64,000 bases of DNA from NCBI GenBank assembly GCA_002320595.1, contig DCKB01000059.1, positions 687 through 64,686 of the forward strand, in the 5' to 3' direction. Origin of the DNA: Christensenella sp. UBA1685. Its GTDB lineage: Bacteria; Bacillota; Clostridia; Christensenellales; CAG-138. Below the pieces are notes generated by a model. That model worked only from the letters and a program-made list of their open reading frames with translations, did not search any database and was not told the DNA's origin. A program made the translations under genes and the position numbers. Each line of letters starts with the position of its first letter. Position 1 is the stretch's first letter. Shown here one piece after another: positions 4,377 to 62,703 of this stretch.

Positions 4377-4795
4377 ATAGGTGCTCCTTTATGTTAAGAA
4401 TAAAATCTATAGAAAATATATTTATATATCATCCTGCCTGCTTTCACACTATCATAGCGCAATCCGCTTAAAAATCAAGCCTTTTTTGTATAATTAATAA
4501 AGAAAATTTTGTCGTGTATTTCAGGGCGTGCTGCATTGATATGCAAAATAGGCGCCTTGAAGGGCGAATAACCCAAAAGGCGCCTTTCTAAAAGGAGCTG
4601 GCACGGCGTAAGCCATGGCGGAGGATTGTCCGTACCTTGCGGCATCCCCCGCTGGTGCCTCATACTGCCAGGCACTTTCCGGAAAGGGGTTTTTAGCAAA
4701 GAGGATAAAGGCGGGCGTGGTTTCCGCAACGTGCGGACGAGTGTCCGCCAAGAGAAAAACAATGCACAAATTGCAAAAAAATCGCATAAACATGC

Positions 4796-23973: not shown

Positions 23974-24335
23974 AAATCAAAAGAAGCGTTTGGCATTTTT
24001 CGGTTTCTTTCGTGGAGGGGGACAAACAGCGGGCAGAACACGCCGCCACTATCGCTATATTGATGAAACCAGCCATACCGTCCCCTTTGCGAATTGCAGT
24101 AAGGGCATAGAAAAAATCCGTTGGATTTTCCGCCTATTTGCCCCGCTGCGGTTTTGTAGGTATTGAGAGCAGCCTCACAGAGGAAAGCGGCAGTTTTTCA
24201 GAGCAAGATTCTACCACGGTGCCAAAATCCGCATATCTGCGGTTTTGCCCCTTTGGTAAATCTTGTTGGGGAGTGCCTTCCCCAAGCCCTGCCATATGAA
24301 AAGGCCGTGTATCGTTCCTGATACACGGCCTATAA

Positions 24336-24370
24336 CTGTTTTACAAATCACGCCCTATGTGCCGGGCCTT
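24336..24370 (-). repeat. right arm of the inverted repeat bounding the AT-rich cassette
   Basis: See 22696-22730. Confidence 0.75.
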
Positions 24371-24378
24371 CCAGCGTG

Positions 24379-24409
24379 TCGAAAAAGTGGCGAAAGGCCA
24401 CTTTTTCGA
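24379..24409. repeat. hairpin family H copy 1 (TCGAAAAAGTGGC-N5-GCCACTTTTTCGA)
   Basis: 13-bp perfect arms. Identical arms at 30691-30721 and a co-varying copy at 42578-42606. Confidence 0.85.
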
Positions 24410-24614
24410 GTTTAATGCAGCTTTTGCCTCTCGCTGCGCTCCCGGCGGCAAAAGCTGCAAGGTGCGAAACCCTAAGGGGTTTCAATCGTTCCGCCGTACG
24501 TGCCGCCGCCGGATTGAACGTCAGGGGTTGCGCCCCCTGACAACCCCAATATACGGCAATTCCGCCGCCAGTCCTTTTCCGGGATTGGCGGCGTTAATGG
24601 TTTTACAGGATGCT

Positions 24615-30459: not shown

Positions 30460-30690
30460 CGCAAGTACCTCCTTCGCTGAAAAGAACTCGTTTTATTCGT
30501 ACCATTGGCTGACAGGGATTTCCCTGCATGGATACATCATAGCACAGGGAAGGCGCTCGCGTGCGGATTTTAATGAAATTCTAATGAAACATTAACCACG
30601 GCGGCAGGGCGTTCAACGATCCTTGCAGCATACAGGTGAGGCGCAGAGCGCTGCCCGAGAGCGAATGCGGGAGACAAAACCTGTGAAAAC

Positions 30691-30721
30691 TCGAAAAAGT
30701 GGCCGTGAGCCACTTTTTCGA
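30691..30721. repeat. hairpin family H copy 2
   Basis: TCGAAAAAGTGGC-CGTGA-GCCACTTTTTCGA. Confidence 0.85.
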
Positions 30722-30768
30722 CAGTCTGAGGCGCGCCCCAAACGTTTGCTTCAAGGTGTCAAGCACCG

Positions 30769-36701: not shown

Positions 36702-38435
36702 ATGCACCTTGTAAAGCGCTTCGTTTCTTACTATAAGCCGCACCGGAAGCTGTTTGCCATCGACATGGCCTGCGCGTTCATCGTTGCGGTGTGCGACCTG
36801 TTTTACCCGATCATCGCGGGAAACATCATCGACGATTATGTGCCAAACCAGGACCTCAGGCTGCTTCTGATCTGGTCCGGCGTGCTGCTCGGCATTTACC
36901 TTGTAAAGGCTGTGCTCAACTACGTCATCCAGTATTGGGGGCACATTGTGGGCGTGCGCATTCAGGGCGACATGCGGCGGGACATGTTCCGCCATATGCA
37001 GAAGCTGCCCTTTGCCTTCTTCGATGAAAACAAAACCGGCACGCTCCTTTCCCGCATGGTCAACGATCTGCAGGATGTTTCCGAGCTTGCGCACCACGGG
37101 CCGGAGGATCTGTTCCTTTCGCTCATCATGCTGGTGGGCTCCTTCATCATCCTCGCGGGTACGGACCTGCTGCTGACGGTTATCATCTTCGCGTTTTTGC
37201 CGGTGATGGTGTTCGTTGCATCCAAACTGCGCAAGGGGATGCAGGAAGCCTTCCGCGCCACGCGCGTGGAGGTGGGAGAAGTAAACGCCAACGTGGAAAC
37301 GGCCATTGCCGGCATGCGCGTTTCGCGCTCTTACACCGCCGCATCCCACGAAAACAGGAAGTTTGATACCGCGAATGAGCGCTTCAAGCTGGCGCGCGGC
37401 CGTGCTTACCGGGAAATGGGCAAGTTCCATTCCAGCATGACGCTCTTCAACGACCTGCTGTACCTGATCGTGCTTGTTGCGGGCGGCCTGTTCTTCTTTT
37501 ATGGGCGCATCAGCATCGGCGATTTTACCAAGTATATCCTGTTTATCACCATGTTTTTAAAGCCCATCAACCGGCTGGTGAACATATTTGAACAGCTTCA
37601 AAACGGCATGACGGGCTTCCAGCGCTTTGTGGAGATCATGGATCAGAAGGACGAAACGGATACCGGCACCATCGAGGCGGATGCGCTTCGCGGCAACATC
37701 GTGTTTGATCACGTCAGTTTCCGCTATGAAAACAGCGATGCCAGAGATGTGGAAAGCAAGGTCATCCATGACCTTTCCATGCGCATTGAGCCGGGGAAAA
37801 CGGTTGCGCTCGTCGGCCCTTCGGGCGGAGGAAAGACGACCATCTGCAACCTGATCCCGCGCTTTTATGAAGCGGATGAAGGCACGATTTCCATTGACGG
37901 TGTGGATATACGCGACCTGACGCGCGAATCGCTCCGCCGCAACATTGGCATCGTTGCACAGGACGTGTTTCTCTTCAACGGCAGCATCCGGGAGAACATC
38001 GCTTACGGTAACCTGGACGCAACGGATGAGGAGATCGTTGAGGCCGCCAAGAAGGCGCATATCCACGATTATATCATGACGCTTGATCACGGCTATGACA
38101 CCGGCGTCGGCGAACGCGGCGTGAAGCTTTCCGGCGGGCAGAAGCAGCGCATCTCCATCGCGCGCGTGTTTCTGAAGAACCCCTCCATCCTGATTCTGGA
38201 TGAAGCGACAAGCGCCCTTGACAATGCCACGGAGATGCTCATCCAGCAGGCGCTGAACGACCTTTCGCATGGCCGCACCTGCATCGTGGTGGCGCACCGG
38301 CTTTCCACCATCAAGAATGCGGATGAGATCATCGTCCTCACCAAGGATGGCATCACGGAGCGCGGCACGCACGAGGAGCTGATCGCCGCAGGCGGCATGT
38401 ACGCAAAGCTTTACCAGTACCAGTTCCGGGAATAA
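36702..38435 (+). CDS. ABC transporter permease/ATP-binding fusion (type I exporter)
   Basis: 577 aa. Six-TM N-terminal half; Walker A GPSGGGKTT, LSGGQKQRISIAR, ILILDEATSALD. Confidence 0.92.
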   Translation: MHLVKRFVSYYKPHRKLFAIDMACAFIVAVCDLFYPIIAGNIIDDYVPNQDLRLLLIWSGVLLGIYLVKAVLNYVIQYWGHIVGVRIQGDMRRDMFRHMQKLPFAFFDENKTGTLLSRMVNDLQDVSELAHHGPEDLFLSLIMLVGSFIILAGTDLLLTVIIFAFLPVMVFVASKLRKGMQEAFRATRVEVGEVNANVETAIAGMRVSRSYTAASHENRKFDTANERFKLARGRAYREMGKFHSSMTLFNDLLYLIVLVAGGLFFFYGRISIGDFTKYILFITMFLKPINRLVNIFEQLQNGMTGFQRFVEIMDQKDETDTGTIEADALRGNIVFDHVSFRYENSDARDVESKVIHDLSMRIEPGKTVALVGPSGGGKTTICNLIPRFYEADEGTISIDGVDIRDLTRESLRRNIGIVAQDVFLFNGSIRENIAYGNLDATDEEIVEAAKKAHIHDYIMTLDHGYDTGVGERGVKLSGGQKQRISIARVFLKNPSILILDEATSALDNATEMLIQQALNDLSHGRTCIVVAHRLSTIKNADEIIVLTKDGITERGTHEELIAAGGMYAKLYQYQFRE

Positions 38436-38449
38436 GGACGCAATCCTTC

Positions 38450-38474
38450 GGGCGGCAATATGCCGCCCTTTTTT
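38450..38474 (+). terminator. intrinsic terminator after the ABC exporter
   Basis: GGGCGGCA-ATA-TGCCGCCC followed by TTTTTT. Confidence 0.85.
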
Positions 38475-38508
38475 GACGGCCGGAAATGGGTCTTATCTCC
38501 GCAGGGAT

Positions 38509-38564
38509 ACGGCAATCCCCCGCAAAGGCTGCGCGGATTGCCCACAATTCGCAAAGGTCGTGCT
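38509..38564 (+). repeat. repeat family R1, copy a
   Basis: ACGGCAATCCCCCGCAAAGGCTGCGCGGATTGCCCACAATTCGCAAAGGTCGTGCT. Three mismatches over 56 nt versus 38766-38821. Confidence 0.9.
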
Positions 38565-38565
38565 A

Positions 38566-38672
38566 ATACGGCAATCCCCCGTCAGCGGCTCGCGCCGCTG
38601 CCACCCCCTTTCAGAAAGGGGGCTTTTGGCAAGCTGCAACCAAAAGGCTCCTTTTTGAAGGGAGCTGTCGAC
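38566..38672 (+). repeat. repeat family R2, copy a (~105 bp, multi-hairpin)
   Basis: ATACGGCAATCCCCCGTCAGCGGCT...GGGAGCTGTCGAC aligns end to end with the reverse complement of 50461-50566. Confidence 0.85.
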
Positions 38673-38678
38673 GCAGGC

Positions 38679-38750
38679 GACTGAAGATTGTCTTATTCCC
38701 GTCGGCACAGATTGCTTCGCACTGCGGACTGAGGATTGTCCTTATTCCCG
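38679..38750 (+). repeat. direct repeat of module GACTGARGATTGTCYTTATTCCCG (two copies)
   Basis: Copies at 38679-38701 and 38727-38750. A related module lies at 38491-38506 and, inverted, at 62593-62625. Confidence 0.8.
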
Positions 38751-38765
38751 CAATGGTCGCGGTTT

Positions 38766-38959
38766 ACGGCAATCCCCCGCAAAGGCCGCGCGTATTGCCC
38801 ACAATTCGCGAAGGTCGTGCTGCGTTGCCGCGGGAGCGGCTTCCTTGCCGGTTTCAGCCGGAAATTCGGGCCGGGAGACGGCCCGAACGACCTGCCTGCG
38901 GGCAGGCCATTGGGCTTTCGCCTCGCTGCATCCCGCACTGCTCTCGCTCGGCTCCGCCC
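38766..38959 (+). repeat. composite repeat element (R1 copy b + internal hairpin segment + 3' module)
   Basis: The 5' ~85 nt and 3' ~47 nt are near-identical to the reverse complement of 62420-62565. That copy lacks the ~70-nt internal segment. Confidence 0.9.
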
Positions 38960-39046
38960 CCCTTCCCTGCGCTGATTCGCTGGCGGAATTCAGGAAGCTG
39001 CCCTGCAAAGCAGCATGCCCGCGCCCACACCTGCATATGATTCGAT

Positions 39047-39667
39047 ATGATGAATTGGCTTTGGGGAATCATGCTCGTTATAGGGCTCATAGCATGCGTG
39101 GCAAGCGGAAACGCCGAAGGCGCGATGGATGCAATGCTCGCAGGCGCAGGAGAGGCGGTGACGCTTTCTCTTTCGCTTGCGGGCGCTTACATGCTTTGGA
39201 TGGGCTTAATGAATGTGGCGAAGGAAGCCGGGTTGATCGACGCGCTTGCACGTGCCGTGCGAAAGCCGCTTGCGCTCCTGTTCCCGCGTTCGCCCGGTGC
39301 GGTTGCGCCCGTTACGCTGAACCTTGCCGCGAACTTTTTCGGCATGGGCAGCGCCGCTACGCCCTTCGGTCTCGCCGCCATGAAAGAACTGCGCGCCGCT
39401 GCCGACCGGGACGGCGTGCCGGAAGGCACGGCTTCCGATGATATGTGCATGTTCCTTTCGCTTAACTCCTCCGCCGTGGAACTTTTGCCCACAAGCGTGC
39501 TTGCGCTGCGCGCTGCCGCGGGTTCGCTGGATGTTTACTGCGTGGTGCTGCCGACGTTCATCGCGTCGCTCCTTGCGTTTGCTTCTGCGGTGGCCCTGTG
39601 CAAACTGCTCTGCCGCCGCGCCCCGCAGCGCGGCCGCACCCGGCGGAAAGCTGGAGGGCGCGCATGA
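39047..39667 (+). CDS. spmA: spore maturation protein A (nucleoside-recognition domain)
   Basis: 206 aa. MNWLWGIMLVIG...AGAYMLWMGLMNVAKEAGL is typical of SpmA. Confidence 0.85.
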   Translation: MMNWLWGIMLVIGLIACVASGNAEGAMDAMLAGAGEAVTLSLSLAGAYMLWMGLMNVAKEAGLIDALARAVRKPLALLFPRSPGAVAPVTLNLAANFFGMGSAATPFGLAAMKELRAAADRDGVPEGTASDDMCMFLSLNSSAVELLPTSVLALRAAAGSLDVYCVVLPTFIASLLAFASAVALCKLLCRRAPQRGRTRRKAGGRA

Positions 39668-42542: not shown

Positions 42543-42570
42543 AAAGGAGCGGCCTTTTGGCCGCTCCTTT
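42543..42570. repeat. 28-bp palindrome AAAGGAGCGGCC-TTTT-GGCCGCTCCTTT (also the likely terminator of 41180..42526)
   Basis: 12-bp perfect arms. The same palindrome, with a complementary loop, recurs at 42769-42796. Confidence 0.85.
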
Positions 42571-42577
42571 GTCGCTG

Positions 42578-42606
42578 TCGATCAAGTGGCGCTGCCACTT
42601 GATCGA
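42578..42606. repeat. hairpin family H copy 3 (co-varying arms)
   Basis: TCGATCAAGTGGC-GCT-GCCACTTGATCGA. Relative to copies 1 and 2, AA>TC in the left arm is matched by TT>GA in the right arm. Confidence 0.85.
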
Positions 42607-42768
42607 GGGTTTCACATCGCGCTTGCGCCGGTGGCGCGGCCAGCGCTCTGTGCAAAGAAAGCCTTGCGCGGCAAGGCTTTTCGCTCGCACGGCACCTGTC
42701 GCTGCTCGCGATTGCAAGTCAAGGGCTGCAGCCCTTGACAATCCCGGAGAGACTTTTTCGACAGGCTG

Positions 42769-42796
42769 AAAGGAGCGGCCAAAAGGCCGCTCCTTT
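42769..42796. repeat. 28-bp palindrome AAAGGAGCGGCC-AAAA-GGCCGCTCCTTT
   Basis: Inverted copy of 42543-42570. Confidence 0.85.
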
Positions 42797-42895: not shown

Positions 42896-44236
42896 ATGCT
42901 TGACCTGATCCTGAAAAACGGCCTGGTTTGTGACCCGGCAAACAGCATCCAAAGCATCCTGAATGTGGGCATCCGAAACGGTCGTATCGCATGCCTTACG
43001 AGCGAATCGTTTCCCGCTGCTGCGGAAATCGACTGCGCTGGGCACATCGTGTCCCCCGGCTTTGTGGATGCGCATTCCCATGAGGACGACCTGCGCGCGG
43101 GGCATATCGAGGCCGACATTACGCTGCGGGCACTCCGCCAGGGCGTTACCACGCTTGTGGCCGGCAACTGCGGCGATGCGCCGCGCGATCTGCCCGCCTA
43201 CTGCGCAGCCTATGACGGAAAGCAACCCGTTAACATGGCCCTGCTTGCCGGGCATACGACAATTCGCAGGCTTTGCGGCGCGCGAAACAAGTATGCTCCC
43301 GTGGACGAAGCGACCCTTGCCGCCATGTGCGAAACATTGGAACGGCAGCTAACCGAAGGGGCGAAGGGCCTTTCCATGGGCATACGCTATGAGCCCGGCA
43401 TGACGCTTGGCGAAATGTGCGCCATGGCGGCGGTTGTAAAGCGTTTTGGCGGCGTTCTTGCCGCCCATGTGCGCGGGGATGCGTTTGAAATTTATGACGC
43501 GATTGAAGAATTTCTTGAAATTGGCCGTCGCACGGGCGTTCGGCTGCAAATTTCCCACATCGGCAGCATGGCGGCTTACGGCCAGATGGCGGAGGTGCTT
43601 TCCTATGTGGATCGCCGCGCCGCAGCAGAAGGCCTTGACGTAAGGATCGACTGCTACCCGTATGATGCGTTCTGCACAAGCATCGGTGCAACGACGTATG
43701 ACGATGGCTTTTTGGATCGCTACCATGATGTAACGCGCATCGAACTGACCGATGGCGAATACAAAGGCTTCATCCCGAACATGGAGGTGTTTGAGAAGGC
43801 GCGCCGGGAGCACCCGGAATACCTGACCATCGCCCATGTGATGAACGGCGCCGAGGTAGATATGGCGCTTACGCATCCGCGCACCATGCTTGGCAGCGAC
43901 GGCGTTCTGCTTAACGGTGCGGGCCACCCGCGTGCGGCGGGCGCGTTTGCCCGCTTCCTTGCACAATATGTATTTGAACGCAAGCTGCTTTCGCTGAACG
44001 AAGGCATTGCAAAGACCACGTGTGAAGCTGCGACGCGCTTCGGCCTTGACCGCGGCACGCTTGGCATAGGGCGCGCGGCGGATGTAACCGTGTTTGACCC
44101 GAAGCGTTTGAAGGACAAAGCCACCTTTGCCGAACCCGCCCTCCCGCCCGAGGGCGTGCGGCTGGTGCTGCTCGGCGGCGTAATCGCGCTGCAGGATGGG
44201 GAAGTGCTCCGCACGGATTTGGGAAAAATCCTTTGA
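42896..44236 (+). CDS. N-acyl-D-amino-acid deacylase (D-aminoacylase) family amidohydrolase
   Basis: 446 aa. GFVDAHSHED metal-binding motif; overall D-aminoacylase-like sequence (LQISHIGS, DCYPY). Confidence 0.85.
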   Translation: MLDLILKNGLVCDPANSIQSILNVGIRNGRIACLTSESFPAAAEIDCAGHIVSPGFVDAHSHEDDLRAGHIEADITLRALRQGVTTLVAGNCGDAPRDLPAYCAAYDGKQPVNMALLAGHTTIRRLCGARNKYAPVDEATLAAMCETLERQLTEGAKGLSMGIRYEPGMTLGEMCAMAAVVKRFGGVLAAHVRGDAFEIYDAIEEFLEIGRRTGVRLQISHIGSMAAYGQMAEVLSYVDRRAAAEGLDVRIDCYPYDAFCTSIGATTYDDGFLDRYHDVTRIELTDGEYKGFIPNMEVFEKARREHPEYLTIAHVMNGAEVDMALTHPRTMLGSDGVLLNGAGHPRAAGAFARFLAQYVFERKLLSLNEGIAKTTCEAATRFGLDRGTLGIGRAADVTVFDPKRLKDKATFAEPALPPEGVRLVLLGGVIALQDGEVLRTDLGKIL

Positions 44237-44316: not shown

Positions 44317-44359
44317 AACGCTCTGGCGGGGCGGCCATTGGCCGCCCCGCCAGAGCGTT
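44317..44359. terminator. 19-bp perfect-stem hairpin after the D-aminoacylase gene
   Basis: AACGCTCTGGCGGGGCGGC-CATTG-GCCGCCCCGCCAGAGCGTT. No T-run follows. Confidence 0.55.
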
Positions 44360-50404: not shown

Positions 50405-50460
50405 GAATGCTCCTTTCTTATTTTGGTTTTGTCAGGAAAAACTTTCAGTCCGCTTGCGCG

Positions 50461-50566
50461 GACAGCTCCTTTGCCAAAGAAGCCTTTTGGGTTACCGCTT
50501 TCCTTTAAGCCCTCTTTTTGAAAGGGGATGGCAGCGGCGAAGCCGCTGACGGGGTGATTGCCGAAT
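50461..50566 (-). repeat. repeat family R2, copy b
   Basis: The reverse complement ATTCGGCAATCACCCCGTCAGCGGCTTCGCCGCTGCCATCCCCTTT...AAAGGAGCTGTC aligns with 38566-38672. Confidence 0.85.
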
Positions 50567-50595
50567 CAGCGCAATCTTTCATTCCCTCGCTTGCG

Positions 50596-50655: not shown

Positions 50656-51660
50656 TTAGCGATGCGGCAGCTCCTGCTTCGCCACAGCGGCGCAGACGAG
50701 CTGCACGGCGGCTTCATAATCGCCCATGTCCGCGGTTTCCACGGGGGAGTGGATATAGCGTGTGGGGATGGAGATGCAGCCGGAAAGGATGCCGCCGCGC
50801 GTGCGCTGCACCGCGCCGGTGTCCGTGCCGCCCGCACGCAGCACTTCGGGCTGCCAGCGGATGTTCTTCTCGTCCGCCGCTTCCACAAGGAACGCGCGCA
50901 CCACCGGAGGCACGATGACGGAAGAATCCATCACCTTCACCGTTGCGCCCGCGCCGAGCTTTACGCTCATGCGGCCGCACTTGGGCGTGTCGCCCGTGCC
51001 GGTCACATCCAGGCTGATGTTCAGGTCGGGCTCGATGGCATAGGCCGCCGCACCCGCGCCGCGCAGGCCGACTTCCTCCTGCACGGTGAACACCGCGTAA
51101 ACATCGTGCACGTTCTGCATCGTGCGGAAGGCTTCCACCACCGCCGCGCAGGCGATGCGGTCGTCAAGCGCGCCCGAGGAAACGCGGCTGCCCATTTCAA
51201 CAAAGTTCGTTACATACACCGCAACATCGCCGATCTGCACCTTTGCCTCGGCCTCTTCGCGCGTCGTTGCGCCGATGTCCACAAACAGCTCCGGCATGGT
51301 TGCATCCTTTGCGCCATGCTTTTCGGTTTCAAAATAGGTCACGCCGTGCGTGCCGTTTTCAAACTGAACCTCGCGTGCTAAGGAAACGACGGGGTTCACG
51401 CCGCCTACGTTCGACACGCGCAGGAAGCCTTTTTCGTCGATGTCCACAACGATGAGGCCGATCTGATCCATGTGCGCGCTGAGCATAACCTTTTTGCCGG
51501 AAGTTCCCTTCTTCACGGCGATCAGGTTGCCGAGCGTGTCGTTGTATACCTCGTCCGCAAACGGCTCCACATAGCTGCGGATTACGTCGCTGACCGTCTG
51601 CTCCCGGCCGGAGGGGCCGTATGCCGCCAAAATGCTTTTGAGCATATCCTTATCAAACAT
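50656..51660 (-). CDS. M42 family metallopeptidase (paralog 3 of 3)
   Basis: Start at MFDKDML after GAGGTG. SAHMDQIGLIV, ALDDRIACA and VQEEVGLRGA motifs. Confidence 0.9.
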   Translation of the reverse strand: MFDKDMLKSILAAYGPSGREQTVSDVIRSYVEPFADEVYNDTLGNLIAVKKGTSGKKVMLSAHMDQIGLIVVDIDEKGFLRVSNVGGVNPVVSLAREVQFENGTHGVTYFETEKHGAKDATMPELFVDIGATTREEAEAKVQIGDVAVYVTNFVEMGSRVSSGALDDRIACAAVVEAFRTMQNVHDVYAVFTVQEEVGLRGAGAAAYAIEPDLNISLDVTGTGDTPKCGRMSVKLGAGATVKVMDSSVIVPPVVRAFLVEAADEKNIRWQPEVLRAGGTDTGAVQRTRGGILSGCISIPTRYIHSPVETADMGDYEAAVQLVCAAVAKQELPHR

Positions 51661-51661
51661 A

Positions 51662-52681
51662 TTACAACACCTCATCGAATTTTTTGGTCTTCAGGAAGGA
51701 ATCCGCGAGCTTGTATGCGTTTTCAAAATCGCGGATGGAAGCGACGCTGCTCGGGGAATGGATGTAACGGCAGGGAACGGAAATACCGCCCGCGATGCAG
51801 CCGGAAAGCGCCTTGTGGATTGCGCCCGCGTCCGTACCGCCGCGCGTACCCTGGCGGATCTGGAAGGGAATGCCGGCCTCCTCAGCCGTGCGCTTGAGCG
51901 CCTCAAACATCTTCGGCCTGACGATGGTGCCACCGTCCATAAAGGAGATCGCGGGGCCTGCGCCGACCTTGGTCACATGCTGATGGCCTTCGGCCTCCGG
52001 CATGTCGTTGGCAGTCGTGCCTTCAAGGATCAGCGCAACTTCCGGCTTCACGTTGTAAACCGCCGCCTGTGCGCCGCGCAGGCCAAGCTCCTCCTGCACG
52101 GTGAACACGGCATAAAAATCGCAATCATAGCTGTTTTTCAGCAGCTCCAGCGCAATTGCACAACCCACGCGGTCGTCGAGCGCCTTCGCTTTCATTTTAT
52201 CCTCGCCGTAGCGCTCCCATTTCGTTGTGAAGGAAACGTAATCGCCGGGGTTCACATATTTGAGCGCGTCGGCCTTGTCCTTCGCGCCGATGTCAATGAA
52301 CAGCTCGTTGTGGCCGAGCACATGGGAAAATTCCTCCCTGGATTGCAGATGGATGGCCTTTGAGCCGATCACGCCGGGCACCTCATCCGGGCCGATGACC
52401 ACGCGCTTTGATACCACAACGCGCGGGTCGATGCCGCCCGCCTGGTATGCAAGCAGGCCGTTGTCCATGGCGCCCCAAACGATCATGCCGACCTCGTCCA
52501 TGTGGGCGCAGGCCATCACGCGGCGGCCTTCCCCCTTCTTGTGGGCGTACAGGTTGCCCATGGCGTCAACCCAAACTTCATCGGCATATTCCTTTGCGAT
52601 ATCGCGGATATAGCGGCGCACGCGGCCTTCGTCGCCCGATACGCCGTTGAGGTTGCAGAGTGCCTCTAATCGTCCAAGCAT
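51662..52681 (-). CDS. M42 family metallopeptidase (paralog 2 of 3)
   Basis: Start at MLGRLEAL after GGGAGG. CAHMDEVGMIV, ALDDRVGCA and VQEELGLRGA motifs. Confidence 0.9.
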   Translation of the reverse strand: MLGRLEALCNLNGVSGDEGRVRRYIRDIAKEYADEVWVDAMGNLYAHKKGEGRRVMACAHMDEVGMIVWGAMDNGLLAYQAGGIDPRVVVSKRVVIGPDEVPGVIGSKAIHLQSREEFSHVLGHNELFIDIGAKDKADALKYVNPGDYVSFTTKWERYGEDKMKAKALDDRVGCAIALELLKNSYDCDFYAVFTVQEELGLRGAQAAVYNVKPEVALILEGTTANDMPEAEGHQHVTKVGAGPAISFMDGGTIVRPKMFEALKRTAEEAGIPFQIRQGTRGGTDAGAIHKALSGCIAGGISVPCRYIHSPSSVASIRDFENAYKLADSFLKTKKFDEVL

Positions 52682-53715
52682 AGCGTTTCCTCCCAATCCG
52701 CGCCGATGTTCGCGGCAACGCCCGCGATCACCTTTGCGCAGTTTTTCAGCGTATCAAGCGAGATGCATTCAACGCTCGTGTGCATATAACGAAGCGGCAG
52801 GGAAATCAGCCCCGTGGGGATACCGCCGCGCTCCACCTGCAGCGCCCAGGCGTCCGTGCCCGTGTGCGCAATGCAGACGTCCGTTTCCCAGGGAAGGTTT
52901 TGCTCCGTGGCGGACGCCTTGATCTTCTCGAACATTTTGGGGTGGATGTTGCCGCCGCGGCAGACCGATACCTTGTCGAATTCAACATAATCCGTGGGCT
53001 TTGCGCCGGGCTGCGGGGCATGGCAAACGTCCATTGCAATGGCCATAGCAGGATGGATATTGTAGCCGCCGGCCTTTGCGCCGCCGCCTGCGGATTCCTC
53101 CTGCACGGAGGCACAGAACACCACATTGCAGTGGAGCTTGTAGTTTTTAAGGATGTCCATCGCCTCCAGCATGCAGACGATGCAGGCGCGGTCATCGAAG
53201 GTTTTGCCCGCGATGAAGTTGTTCTTGAGCTTCATGGGCGGGAACGGGGCAAAGGTGACGTTGTCGCCCACCTGCACAAGCTCACGCACGCGCTCCACCG
53301 GGAGCCCGGTGTCGCACACAAGGTCGTCGATCTTGTATGCCTTATCCTTGTCGTCCGCGTTCTGCAAATGCGGCGGGAGCGCTCCCACCACGGCGGGGAG
53401 GATTTCGCGGCCGAACACGCGCACCTCGGAACCGGGCAGCACGCGCGGGTCGACGCCCGCAACCGAGCGCAGGCGCAGCATGCCGTTTTCCTCAATGTCC
53501 GTGACCATCATGCCGACCTCGTCCATGTGCGCCATGACGAGCAGCGTCGGGCCGTCCGGGTTGCCGATGCGGCCGTAGGTGTTGCCCATCGCGTCGATCC
53601 AGACGTCGTCGGTATGGGCGCGGAAATATCCTTGCACGGCGCGGGACACGGCGGCTTCGTTGCCCGTCACGCCCGGGAGCGTCGTGAGATCGGATATTGC
53701 CTTAAAAATATCCAT
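52666..53715 (-). CDS. M42 family metallopeptidase (paralog 1 of 3)
   Basis: 349 aa. MAHMDEVGMMV, TFDDRACIV and VQEESAGGGA motifs. Confidence 0.9.
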   Translation of the reverse strand: MDIFKAISDLTTLPGVTGNEAAVSRAVQGYFRAHTDDVWIDAMGNTYGRIGNPDGPTLLVMAHMDEVGMMVTDIEENGMLRLRSVAGVDPRVLPGSEVRVFGREILPAVVGALPPHLQNADDKDKAYKIDDLVCDTGLPVERVRELVQVGDNVTFAPFPPMKLKNNFIAGKTFDDRACIVCMLEAMDILKNYKLHCNVVFCASVQEESAGGGAKAGGYNIHPAMAIAMDVCHAPQPGAKPTDYVEFDKVSVCRGGNIHPKMFEKIKASATEQNLPWETDVCIAHTGTDAWALQVERGGIPTGLISLPLRYMHTSVECISLDTLKNCAKVIAGVAANIGADWEETLCLDD

Positions 53716-62386: not shown

Positions 62387-62419
62387 GGGAAATCCTTTCG
62401 TCCGGATAAAAGTGAGTGT

Positions 62420-62565
62420 GGGCGGAGCCGAGCGAGAGCAGTGCGGGATGCAGCGAGGCGGAAGCCCAGTAAGCAAGGGAGTGCAAGGAAGCCGCTCCCG
62501 CGGCAACGCAGCGCGACCATTGCGCATTGTGGACAATACGCGCGGCCTTTGCGGGGGATTGCCGC
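62420..62565 (-). repeat. composite repeat element, inverted short copy (R1 + 3' module)
   Basis: The reverse complement matches 38766-38850 and 38912-38959 with only a handful of mismatches. Lies in the rplI-dnaB spacer. Confidence 0.9.
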
Positions 62566-62703
62566 ATCAGCACAGCCTTGCCGGAGGTTGCCGTATCCCT
62601 GCGGGAATAAGAACAAGCCTCAGCCGCCTGCGGCGACAGCTCCTTTCGGAAAGGAGCCTGATGGCTTATCGTTCCTCCCAGAGCTCCCTTTCACGTTTCG
62701 GCA

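What the first reader, a model, noticed from the sequence alone, without database searches (positions are those of the whole stretch)
38491..38962. Composite array of modular GC-rich hairpin repeats between the ABC exporter and spmA
Seen: this ~600-bp intergenic region is built almost entirely from reusable modules. A 56-nt unit occurs twice (38509-38564 and 38766-38821, 3 mismatches). A 23-24-nt unit GACTGARGATTGTCYTTATTCCCG occurs twice (38679-38701, 38727-38750). A ~105-nt multi-hairpin unit (38566-38672) and a 47-nt tail (38912-38959) also occur. Each module recurs elsewhere in the window, in either orientation, in other intergenic regions (50461-50566, 62420-62625, with a partial match near 4600-4640). 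The modules are rich in short perfect stems. They are not terminators of the flanking genes: a separate canonical terminator sits at 38450-38474. Inference: this is a REP/BIME- or MITE-like family specific to this lineage. It could be structured RNA or DNA, a protein-binding array, or a non-autonomous mobile element. I cannot match it to any named repeat family.
Basis: seen in the sequence. Interest (0 to 1): 0.62.

Follow-up and report, generated by a model that had tools for sequence, protein, structure and literature searches.

The report
Decayed nuclease-associated palindromic repeats between genes
The hairpin-rich stretch between the ABC exporter and spmA is a pile-up of gene-less copies of a palindromic repeat that is widespread in gut Clostridia and that, in its complete form elsewhere, carries a small DUF559 (Vsr-like) nuclease gene, which hints at an undescribed selfish DNA element.

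Summary
The 611-nt spacer (38436-39046) consists of modules that recur at 50444-50579, 62411-62692 and 4570-4637. Orthologous spacers in ten strains with identical SpmA carry four different module sets (251-611 nt).

The modules are not lineage-specific at their core. Their building block is a ~50-nt arm: an SD-like hairpin, then a GC hairpin whose stem varies but stays paired, then CTGAGGATTG. The arm occurs in inverted pairs in a sister species (MAG UMGS922) and in more than 120 metagenome contigs, mostly termite gut and some human gut.

No Rfam family and no paper matched.

In seven loci of termite-gut and other Clostridia the two arms flank a ~118-aa DUF559 nuclease ORF. One arm supplies its Shine-Dalgarno sequence. 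The other encodes its last residues (ILSQLR) and the stop codon.

Best reading: the window array is a decayed, recombined cluster of ORF-less (MITE/BIME-like) relatives of this nuclease cassette.

How the units move is unknown. I found no target-site duplication, and no nuclease gene in the window lineage.

An RNA function is unlikely. Both strands fold equally well, loop polarity is mirrored between arms, and the array lies downstream of a terminator.

The parts
38450..38476 (+). Intrinsic terminator of the ABC exporter gene (GGGCGGCAATATGCCGCCC plus a T run). This is context, not part of the repeat family.
   Evidence: conserved in all ten strains
38491..38507 (+). Remnant of an element centre (TCTTATCTCCGCAGGGA; compare GTCTTATTCCCGCA after the right arms). 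It forms the left edge of the array and is shared by all strain haplotypes.
   Evidence: (I8)
38508..38564 (+). Module A, copy 1. It begins with the left-arm head TACGGCAATCCCCCG, followed by CGCAAAGG..CACAATTCGCAAAGGTCGTGCT. In strains L001-L007 and L009 a ~75%-identical variant takes its place. It is absent in L008 and internally deleted in L010.
   Evidence: (D5)
38565..38629 (+). Left arm: head 38567-38581, GC hairpin h1 38583-38600 (CAGCGGC TCGC GCCGCTG), SD-like hairpin h2 38604-38622 (CCCCCTTTCAGAAAGGGGG), then CTTTTGG. It is homologous to the arm that lies upstream of DUF559 ORFs (read on the other strand).
   Evidence: A3
38630..38639 (+). Short link between the arms. In the sister species UMGS922 this position holds ~55 nt with two more hairpins.
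38640..38701 (+). Right arm: CCAAAAG, hairpin h3 38647-38665 (GCTCCTTTTTGAAGGGAGC), GC hairpin h4 38667-38681, CTGAAGATTG 38681-38690, then centre remnant TCTTATTCCCG. It is homologous to the arm that encodes ILSQLR-stop of DUF559 ORFs (read on the other strand).
   Evidence: arm HMM 42 bits; alignment A2
38702..38726 (+). Spacer TCGGCACAGATTGCTTCGCACTGCG with no relatives found; possibly a degraded unit.
38727..38764 (+). Right-arm end fragment GACTGAGGATTG plus centre TCCTTATTCCCGCAATGGTCGCGGTT. With the next head it forms a head-to-head junction (GGATTGTCC..GGCAATCC).
   Evidence: (X hits, 96% in UMGS922)
38765..38821 (+). Module A, copy 2 (95% identical to copy 1).
   Evidence: D5, I1
38822..38968 (+). 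Module C (second family, 'F2'). 38849-38910 is an extra block of three short GC hairpins that the 62-kb copy lacks. Relatives occur only in human-gut-lineage loci.
   Evidence: (I1, I2)
50444..50579 (-). Second copy of the left arm-link-right arm unit, between an M42 peptidase gene and an Xaa-Pro aminopeptidase gene. The spacer has the same length in all four places shown for the strains sampled.
62411..62692 (-). Composite between rplI and dnaB: right arm (62608-62668), degenerate head, module A and module C. The spacer has the same length in all nine places shown.
4570..4637 (+). Solo, diverged right arm in a spacer between divergent genes.
   Evidence: (20 bits)

Best explanation
The array is a cluster of ORF-less, partly truncated and recombined copies of a palindromic repeat family. 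The basic unit is a ~50-nt arm: [SD-like hairpin GGCTCCTTT..AAAGGAGC] [GC hairpin with a variable but paired stem and a G-N(N)-A loop] CTGAGGATTG. Arms occur as inverted pairs, either head-to-head or tail-to-tail.

Shown:
- The window's arms are homologous to arms found in a sister species and in many gut Clostridia.
- In seven loci from other Clostridia, mostly termite-gut, the two arms flank a ~118-aa DUF559 (Vsr-like PD-(D/E)XK) nuclease ORF. One arm provides the GGAGGA Shine-Dalgarno sequence 6-8 nt before the ATG. The other encodes the C-terminal ILSQLR and the stop codon.
- The window array differs between strains of one species by whole modules.

Inferred:
- The ORF-less units are non-autonomous (MITE-like) relatives of this nuclease cassette and have settled in spacers, often just past terminators.
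- The composite array grew by adjacent or nested arrival of units. It is reshaped by recombination, gene conversion and deletion between repeated heads, as in BIME clusters.
- The hairpins are read as DNA, each arm in the same outside-to-inside sense, probably by the nuclease or by host repair.

Not established: whether the DUF559 protein moves the units. No such gene was seen in the window lineage, so the window copies may be fossils.
For: Dispersal and breadth:
- The head pattern gave about 20 exact matches in MAG UMGS922 and 2 in a termite Oscillospiraceae MAG. The remaining hits were singletons in unrelated phyla.
- An HMM found about 24 near-full copies in 16 UMGS922 loci.

Strain variation: spacers of 611, 314, 251 and 325 nt carry different module sets, while the flanks stay 97-100% identical.

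Palindromic build:
- Full-length copies also match their own reverse complement.
- The region folds equally well on both strands.

Structure is conserved while sequence varies:
- 96% of cells are paired, and 29 cells have changes on both sides against 10.1 in shuffles (0 of 500 shuffles reach 29). The changes are concentrated in h1 and h4.
- h4 has 60 distinct sequences with 25 distinct stem strands. Pairing beyond the fixed ends averages 2.95 pairs within a copy against 0.91 across copies.

Mirrored loop polarity: C-G(N1-2)A-G apexes occur in 42 of 60 h4 sequences on the given strand against 2 of 60 on the other. For h1 the figures are 6 of 66 against 53 of 66. These apexes fit the DNA mini-hairpin motif GCGNAGC/GCGNNAGC (PMC13037366, PMC3201870).

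Link to the nuclease:
- Arm pairs 340-420 nt apart enclose a DUF559 ORF (Pfam PF04480, E 6e-31).
- An independent protein search found 2570 homologues. 37 of the best 120 clusters end in an ILSQLR-like sequence, and others read on through the arm.
- Both homologues looked up with an ILSQLR-type end (P0009, P0059) have both arms. A more distant one, P0118, has a diverged version.
- The nuclease motif is intact in 115 of 120 clusters.

Homology of the window arms to the ORF-flanking arms: alignments A2 and A3 and arm-HMM hits in the window of 42, 40, 36 and 20 bits.
Against: - No target-site duplication or clean filled-versus-empty pair was found.
- The strain differences at 38 kb are all explicable by recombination at repeated motifs, so they do not prove transposition.
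- The 50-kb and 62-kb copies are fixed in all sampled strains.
- Centres of ORF-less units show no ORF remnants beyond about 7 nt next to the arm. The plus-strand hits are no better than the minus-strand control.
- No DUF559 ORF occurs in the window or in 16 UMGS922 loci. No multicopy protein occurs near the copies.
- A lone PD-(D/E)XK nuclease is not a known transposase.
- UMGS922 copies between co-directional genes are 10:1 in one orientation (using crude gene calls). A neutral DNA parasite does not predict this.
- Ascertainment: the metagenome loci were chosen by an exact 23-nt arm pattern.
Confidence: 0.6

Rival explanations
1. The DUF559 gene is a homing-type invader of a pre-existing palindromic repeat. 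On this view the repeats are older, host-tolerated REP/BIME-like elements that spread by another route. The nuclease gene merely targets their centres and has adapted to use arm sequence for its start and stop.
For: - ORF-less units far outnumber ORF-bearing ones: 6 of 120 pattern-selected loci had an ORF.
- Centres lack ORF remnants.
- Vsr-like nucleases include a known homing endonuclease family (PMC3424549). There is a weak PADLOC 'HEase' match.
- In L078 the ORF lies beside a complete ORF-less unit, not inside it.
Against: - The Shine-Dalgarno sequence, the last seven codons and the stop lie inside the arms across proteins only 60-80% identical.
- The left/right arm asymmetry (CGGAGGATT against CTGAGGATT; CCTCC against GCTCC hairpin) has a coding rationale, yet it is kept in ORF-less units.
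Confidence: 0.2
2. The units are structured RNAs, either cis-acting mRNA elements or small RNAs, and the hairpins are selected at the RNA level, for example for mRNA stability or translation control through the SD / anti-SD hairpins.
For: - Compensatory changes in h1 and h4.
- A 10:1 orientation bias between co-directional genes, with no near-full copy in a divergent spacer in UMGS922.
- The 50-kb and 62-kb copies lie inside likely operons.
- h2 carries CACCTCCTTT, which equals the 16S 3' end (own knowledge).
Against: - No Rfam match at any threshold tried.
- The two strands fold equally well.
- Loop polarity is mirrored between arms, so one transcript would carry favourable loops in only one arm.
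- The array lies after a canonical terminator.
- Units are truncated, permuted, tandemly multiplied and vary between strains.
- There is no closing helix that covaries.
Confidence: 0.1
3. These are classical REP/BIME elements moved by a REP-associated tyrosine transposase (RAYT), or MITEs of an ordinary IS family whose transposase gene lies elsewhere in the genome.
For: - Units alternate in orientation with conserved linkers, form mosaic clusters and lie outside genes. This matches the REP/BIME description in PMC2817692.
- TA lies at both ends of the UMGS922 tail-to-tail units.
Against: - The unit is ~50 nt with two hairpins, not a single 20-40-nt palindrome with a fixed tetranucleotide.
- The TA-bounded ends are followed by further family sequence, so they are not true termini.
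- No transposase-like or multicopy protein occurs in about 190 kb around the copies.
- The only recurrent associated ORF is DUF559.
Confidence: 0.07
4. The repeats are a local duplication or a chance similarity with no wider meaning.
For: Module A is duplicated 257 nt apart within the spacer.
Against: Copies lie at four separate spacers in the window, in a sister species and in many metagenomes. The head occurs 11 times against 2.8 expected.
Confidence: 0.01

Closest known systems
REP / BIME clusters of Enterobacteria (and REPIN doublets)
   Same: Extragenic hairpin units used in alternating orientation with conserved linkers. They build mosaic clusters that vary between strains, mostly lie downstream of genes, and keep hairpin structure through compensatory changes.
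   Different: The unit here is ~50 nt with two hairpins plus a conserved single-stranded CTGAGGATTG, not one 20-40-nt palindrome with a GTAG-like head. No RAYT was seen. The associated gene is a DUF559 nuclease lying between the arms.
MITEs with long terminal inverted repeats (Neisseria Correia elements, ERIC, RUP)
   Same: 100-200-nt non-coding palindromic units, many copies, found in spacers, with ORF-bearing relatives sharing the same ends.
   Different: No target-site duplication was found. The ORF-bearing relative encodes a ~118-aa PD-(D/E)XK nuclease, not a DDE transposase. The units exist in two circularly permuted forms.
Pneumococcal BOX elements (boxA-boxB(n)-boxC)
   Same: Modular build with variable numbers of sub-modules. 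Here, head units (35 nt) and arm units (46 nt) also occur in tandem.
   Different: No sequence relation was tested or expected, and the host group differs. The comparison rests on my own knowledge of BOX.
Free-standing or intron-borne homing endonuclease genes of the Vsr-like group, and Vsr/DUF559 proteins (PDB 3HRL; E. coli YcjD, NCBIfam PRK09767)
   Same: The ORF is a DUF559/Vsr-like nuclease domain (Pfam E 6e-31; 3HRL E 2.9e-16; PRK09767 at 75 bits, below its 218-bit cut-off).
   Different: Known Vsr proteins repair T:G mismatches, and known homing enzymes target one conserved site. Here the gene sits inside a dispersed palindromic repeat and shares its start and stop signals with the repeat arms.
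HEARO / IS605-type 'small nuclease ORF plus structured flank' elements
   Same: A small nuclease ORF is tightly coupled to conserved structured flanking sequence, with ORF-less copies in the same genomes.
   Different: No Rfam HEARO match. The protein fold differs, and the flanks are inverted repeats.

Membership tests
MITE | Short (under about 600 bp) and without coding capacity | tested here: met
   Units are 120-190 nt. Only overlapping spurious ORFs lie in the spacer.
MITE | Terminal inverted repeats | tested here: met
   Arms of about 46-55 nt are inverted copies of each other. Full-length copies match their own reverse complement at 35-60 bits.
MITE | Target-site duplication flanking each copy | tested here: not met
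   No recurrent direct repeat was found at the ends of head-to-head units or ORF-bearing units. The TA at the ends of UMGS922 units is followed by more family sequence. No empty site was available.
MITE | Many dispersed copies in a genome | tested here: met
   About 24 near-full copies in 16 loci of one MAG, four spacers in the 64-kb window, and more than 120 metagenome contigs.
MITE | Autonomous partner with the same ends encoding a transposase | tested here: inconclusive
   ORF-bearing relatives share the arms but encode DUF559, which is not a known transposase. None was found in the window or in UMGS922 loci. A whole-genome search was not possible.
MITE | Presence/absence differences between close strains | tested here: inconclusive
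   Four haplotypes occur at 38 kb, but every indel ends in repeated motifs, so recombination explains them equally well. The 50-kb and 62-kb copies are fixed.
REP / BIME | Unit is a single 20-40-nt imperfect palindrome with a conserved 5' tetranucleotide | tested here: not met
   The unit has two hairpins plus CTGAGGATTG, about 50 nt in all.
REP / BIME | Units alternate in orientation with specific linkers, forming clusters | tested here: met
   Both head-to-head and tail-to-tail pairs and arrays occur.
REP / BIME | Associated RAYT (Y1 transposase) gene flanked by the units | not testable with these tools
   No candidate was found in about 190 kb around the copies.
Any Rfam RNA family | Covariance-model match at the gathering score | tested here: not met
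   The window, canonical UMGS922 copies and 20 metagenome loci were searched. Only tRNAs and riboswitches elsewhere matched. The best hits in the units are chance-level microRNA models well below cut-off.
Intrinsic terminator | GC hairpin followed by a T run | tested here: not met
   Only 38450-38468 qualifies; no module does.
DUF559 / Vsr-like PD-(D/E)XK nuclease (the ORF between arms in related loci) | Pfam PF04480 above the gathering score, with the conserved D..E.D..H core | tested here: met
   107-110 bits against a cut-off of 20.6. PDB 3HRL at E 2.9e-16. The motif is present in 115 of 120 homologue clusters.
Homing endonuclease gene | The nuclease cuts the ORF-less allele, and the gene is copied in by repair | not testable with these tools
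   This needs biochemistry or allelic ORF-present/ORF-absent pairs. None was found among the loci.

The most novel reading that the evidence does not exclude
The arm-flanked DUF559 cassette is a new class of selfish element whose only protein is a Vsr-like nuclease. That nuclease would recognise the DNA mini-hairpins of the inverted arms. It would drive spread of both the cassette and its ORF-less derivatives, through a circular or tandem intermediate or through break-induced copying. This would give part of the DUF559 family its first function, and would explain hairpin-repeat arrays in many gut Clostridia.
Probability: 0.3. Interest if true: 0.8.

Novelty: new variant of a known kind. Interest (0 to 1): 0.55.

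Why it matters
Intergenic hairpin repeats are common and usually left unexplained. Here a repeat array can be traced to a defined, widespread unit whose complete form carries a conserved nuclease of unknown function.

If the link is causal, it gives three things:
- a testable role for part of the DUF559 family, which also has a member in E. coli (YcjD);
- a new route by which small nuclease genes and their gene-less derivatives colonise spacers;
- a practical explanation for assembly breaks and spacer-length differences in gut Clostridia MAGs.

For the window itself, the array marks a recombination-prone spacer. Strains differ there, and synteny with the sister species ends there.

Tried and rejected
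- Hammerhead-like core: CUGAGGA fits CUGANGA, but no GAAA or cleavage-site arrangement follows. Rejected by inspection.
- A covarying closing helix around head-to-head units: flank complementarity is 5.9 against 5.7 of 14 pairs in the control. Rejected.
- Replication-strand explanation of the orientation bias: the GC-skew profile is uninformative.
- Target-site duplication: TA or other direct repeats are not consistent.
- ORF remnants in the centres: none beyond about 7 nt.
- A transposase or other multicopy protein near copies: none.
- Allelic pairs with and without the ORF among the fetched loci: none.
- Phage or plasmid carriage: the module A head pattern had 0 hits in viral contigs. The ORF has only homologues below 60% identity on plasmids or chromids and in two fecal phage-like contigs.
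- Defence-system models: only weak partial matches.
- Literature: no paper links DUF559 to flanking repeats, and no paper holds the arm sequence in a relevant context.
- The head-pattern genome scan did not return the window's own species, probably because most of its heads differ from the exact pattern. No copy number for that genome could therefore be obtained.
Full report
**1. The observation**

The spacer between the ABC exporter (36702-38435, +; Pfam ABC_membrane and ABC_tran) and the SpmA-like gene (39047-39667, +; Pfam Gate) is 611 nt.

- Module A lies at 38508-38564 and 38765-38821 (57 nt, 95% identical).
- The 23/24-nt unit lies at 38679-38701 and 38727-38750.
- The multi-hairpin unit 38565-38701 recurs at 50579-50444 (80% over 137 nt, E 2.5e-25) and in part at 4634-4573.
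- Module A plus the tail recur, inverted, at 62411-62568 (82 nt at 94% and 58 nt at 91%).
- The 15-nt head occurs 11 times with up to 3 mismatches against 2.8 expected; 0 of 100 shuffles reach that number.
- The region folds better than shuffled sequence on both strands, with z -3.2 and -3.3.
- Only 38450-38468 plus its T run is terminator-like.

**2. Comparison between strains**

SpmA with the identical sequence is encoded on many gut-metagenome contigs and on NCBI MAGs labelled Christensenellaceae bacterium or Clostridium sp.. Ten orthologous spacers were aligned. Their flanks are nearly identical, but their module content differs:

- the window has A-B-x-A-C (611 nt);
- eight strains have A'-B (314 nt), where A' is only about 75% identical to A;
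- one strain has B alone (251 nt);
- GCA_018371975.1 has a shortened A plus C and no B (325 nt).

Every difference begins and ends in repeated motifs such as ATACGGCAATCCCC or CGCAAAGG. The variation therefore proves module-level turnover, but recombination or gene conversion can explain it without transposition. The copies at 50 kb and 62 kb show the same spacer length in all sampled strains.

**3. A dispersed family in a sister species**

A scan of one genome per species for the head pattern gave about 20 exact matches in one MAG (uncultured Clostridiales UMGS922) and two in a termite Oscillospiraceae MAG. The other hits were single and lay in unrelated phyla.

UMGS922 is a sister species. 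Its ABC exporter is 87% identical in DNA and 92% in protein, and synteny ends at that gene's 3' end.

BLAST and an HMM found about 24 near-full copies in its 16 loci. The canonical unit there is about 175 nt: TA-CGGCAATCCCCCG-h1-CCA-h2-CGTTTGG-(about 55 nt)-CCAAAAG-h3-T-h4-TGAGGATTGYC-KTA. The window's copies are a short-link variant of this unit.

The consensus fold has an outer stem, four arm hairpins and two central hairpins.

- 96% of cells are paired.
- Changes on both sides of a pair are concentrated in h1 and h4: 29 cells against 10.1 in shuffles, with 0 of 500 shuffles reaching 29.

The sequence flanking these units is often itself family sequence: 35-nt head units in two to four tandem copies, and linker + h4 + tail units. 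A second family (module C plus half of A) lies inside h3 in four copies. It is confined to human-gut-lineage loci.

**4. Position and orientation**

I used a simple codon-usage gene caller of my own. Of 20 near-full UMGS922 copies:

- 10 lie between co-directional genes in the sense orientation, and 1 in the antisense orientation;
- 9 lie between convergent genes;
- none lies between divergent genes.

Several copies, and the window array, lie just past a canonical terminator. GC skew does not settle whether the bias follows replication. The gene calls are crude, so I treat the 10:1 ratio as suggestive only.

**5. The natural unit and its breadth**

I scanned metagenomes for AAAGGAGCTGTC, then 8-24 nt, then GACTGAGGATT. 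Most hits were termite-gut contigs, with some from human gut and one from a fermentation metagenome. Host GC ranged from 27 to 64%.

The commonest form there is head-to-head: h3-h4-CTGAGGATT-G-(1-50 nt, commonly about 27)-AATCCTCCG-h1-CCA-h2-CTTTGG, inside unrelated flanks. This is a circular permutation of the UMGS922 and window unit. Tail-to-tail pairs, 46-nt tandem arms and triple units also occur.

The building block is therefore a ~50-nt arm used in inverted pairs. Left and right arms are about 85% alike when one is reverse-complemented.

Flanks are not complementary beyond the arms (5.9 against 5.7 of 14 pairs), so there is no covarying closing helix. I saw no consistent target-site duplication.

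No Rfam family matches these loci. The canonical copies and the window also have no match.

**6. The hairpins look like DNA signals**

Across all loci, h4 has 60 distinct sequences with 25 distinct stem strands, and it stays paired: 2.95 pairs beyond the fixed ends within a copy against 0.91 across copies.

Its apex is C-G(N1-2)A-G in 42 of 60 sequences on the given strand, against 2 of 60 on the other strand. For h1 the figures are reversed: 6 of 66 against 53 of 66. Many apexes are exactly GCGNAGC or GCGNNAGC, the unusually stable DNA mini-hairpin (PMC13037366, PMC3201870).

Each arm therefore carries the favourable loop on the strand that runs towards the centre. Any one transcript would have it in only one arm. 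Together with the equal folding of both strands, this favours recognition of each arm as DNA over a single functional RNA. This is an inference.

**7. The nuclease gene**

An arm HMM found arm pairs 340-420 nt apart in L101, L108 and L187. A ~118-aa ORF lies between them. It is a DUF559 domain (PF04480, E 6e-31). It is related to PDB 3HRL (E 2.9e-16) and to NCBIfam PRK09767, the E. coli YcjD model, though below that model's cut-off. tblastn found the ORF next to arms in 6 of the 120 loci.

Read in the direction of the ORF, the order is as follows:

- the CCTCC hairpin, then a GC hairpin, then CGGAGGATT, then 3-5 nt, then the ATG;
- the ORF;
- the final codons ...ATC CTC AGT CAG CTT CGC TGA, which are the AATCCTCAGTC + h4 part of the other arm;
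- the GCTCC hairpin.

One arm thus supplies the Shine-Dalgarno sequence. The other encodes ILSQLR and the stop codon.

A protein search that did not depend on the arms gave 2570 homologues.

- 37 of the best 120 clusters end in an ILSQLR-like sequence, and more read on through the arm.
- The D..E.DG..H core is intact in 115 of 120.
- Most sit on contigs of 0.5-2 kb, as multicopy DNA tends to.

Looked-up examples confirm the arrangement.

- P0009 comes from a termite Oscillospiraceae MAG. It has both arms, and an ORF-less unit lies 3 kb away.
- P0059 comes from GCA_023408315.1. There the ORF is flanked by direct repeats of a tail-to-tail unit. Recombination between these repeats would leave exactly the window-type unit.
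- P0118 comes from a genome with 48% GC and has a diverged version.

Alignments A2 and A3 place the window's right and left arms with the ORF-flanking arms.

**8. What remains open**

- Centres of ORF-less units show no ORF remnants beyond about 7 nt. 'Deletion derivative' and 'ORF invaded a repeat' both remain possible. The arm asymmetry makes sense for the ORF and is kept in ORF-less units, which favours the first.
- No DUF559 ORF was found in the window or in the UMGS922 loci. No multicopy protein lies near the copies.
- The way the units move is unknown.
- I found no paper that links DUF559 to flanking repeats. The literature groups it with Vsr and a homing endonuclease.

**9. Verdict**

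It is a decayed, recombined cluster of ORF-less units of a widespread palindromic family. The complete relatives of that family carry a DUF559 nuclease.

It behaves like MITE/BIME repeats, but it fails defining tests of both: no target-site duplication and no known transposase for MITEs, and neither a REP-type unit nor a RAYT for REP/BIME. I classify it as a new variant of a known kind. There is a moderately probable and more novel reading: a mobile element whose only protein is a nuclease.

Noticed in passing
window 42543-42796: A different ~254-nt element bounded by 45-nt inverted arms (AAAGGAGCGGCCTTTTGGCCGCTCCTTTGTCGCTGTCGATCAAGT, 87% complementary) lies upstream of gene 42896-44236. The orthologous spacer of the sister species (L021 3434-3960) holds a B::F2 composite instead.
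   Followed up: partly
window 24372-24413 and 30687-30728; also 24300-24600: A repeated hairpin, TCGAAAAAGTGGC..GCCACTTTTTCGA (42 nt, 88%), occurs in two other spacers. The 24.3-24.6 kb spacer is a chain of about five short GC hairpins. Hairpin-filled spacers seem to be a general trait of this genome.
   Followed up: no
window 44317-44359: A perfect 21-bp palindrome (AACGCTCTGGCGGGGCGGCCA T TGGCCGCCCCGCCAGAGCGTT) lies downstream of gene 42896-44236.
   Followed up: no
window 38436 vs L021 1985-2090: Synteny with sister species UMGS922 ends exactly at the 3' end of the ABC exporter, where the array sits. In UMGS922 the next gene is the inverted orthologue of window 42896-44236.
   Followed up: partly
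window 50656-53715: Three tandem paralogous M42-family peptidase genes (29-37% identical to one another) lie upstream of the 50-kb repeat copy.
   Followed up: no
L198 5880-6460 (GCA_023408315.1): The DUF559 ORF is flanked by direct repeats of a tail-to-tail arm pair. The upstream copy includes a duplicate of the ORF's last 27 nt. This suggests a tandem or circular intermediate, or a solo-LTR-like route to ORF-less units.
   Followed up: partly
L095 1926-2028; L153 2393-2776: Arms occur in 46-nt head-to-tail tandem in L095. Three complete head-to-head units lie 152-183 nt apart in L153.
   Followed up: no
L104, L125, L134 (centres of head-to-head units): A second repeat, GTAGGGGCGGC...GCCCCTAC (REP-like, with a GTAG head), is nested in the variable centre of several termite-gut units.
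   Followed up: no
proteins P0001-P0120: Most close DUF559 homologues sit on contigs of only 0.5-2 kb, which suggests that the cassette breaks metagenome assemblies as multicopy DNA does.
   Followed up: no
UMGS922 loci: Units between co-directional genes are 10:1 in one orientation. That orientation is antisense to the direction the DUF559 ORF has in complete elements. The cause is unknown, and the gene calls were crude.
   Followed up: partly
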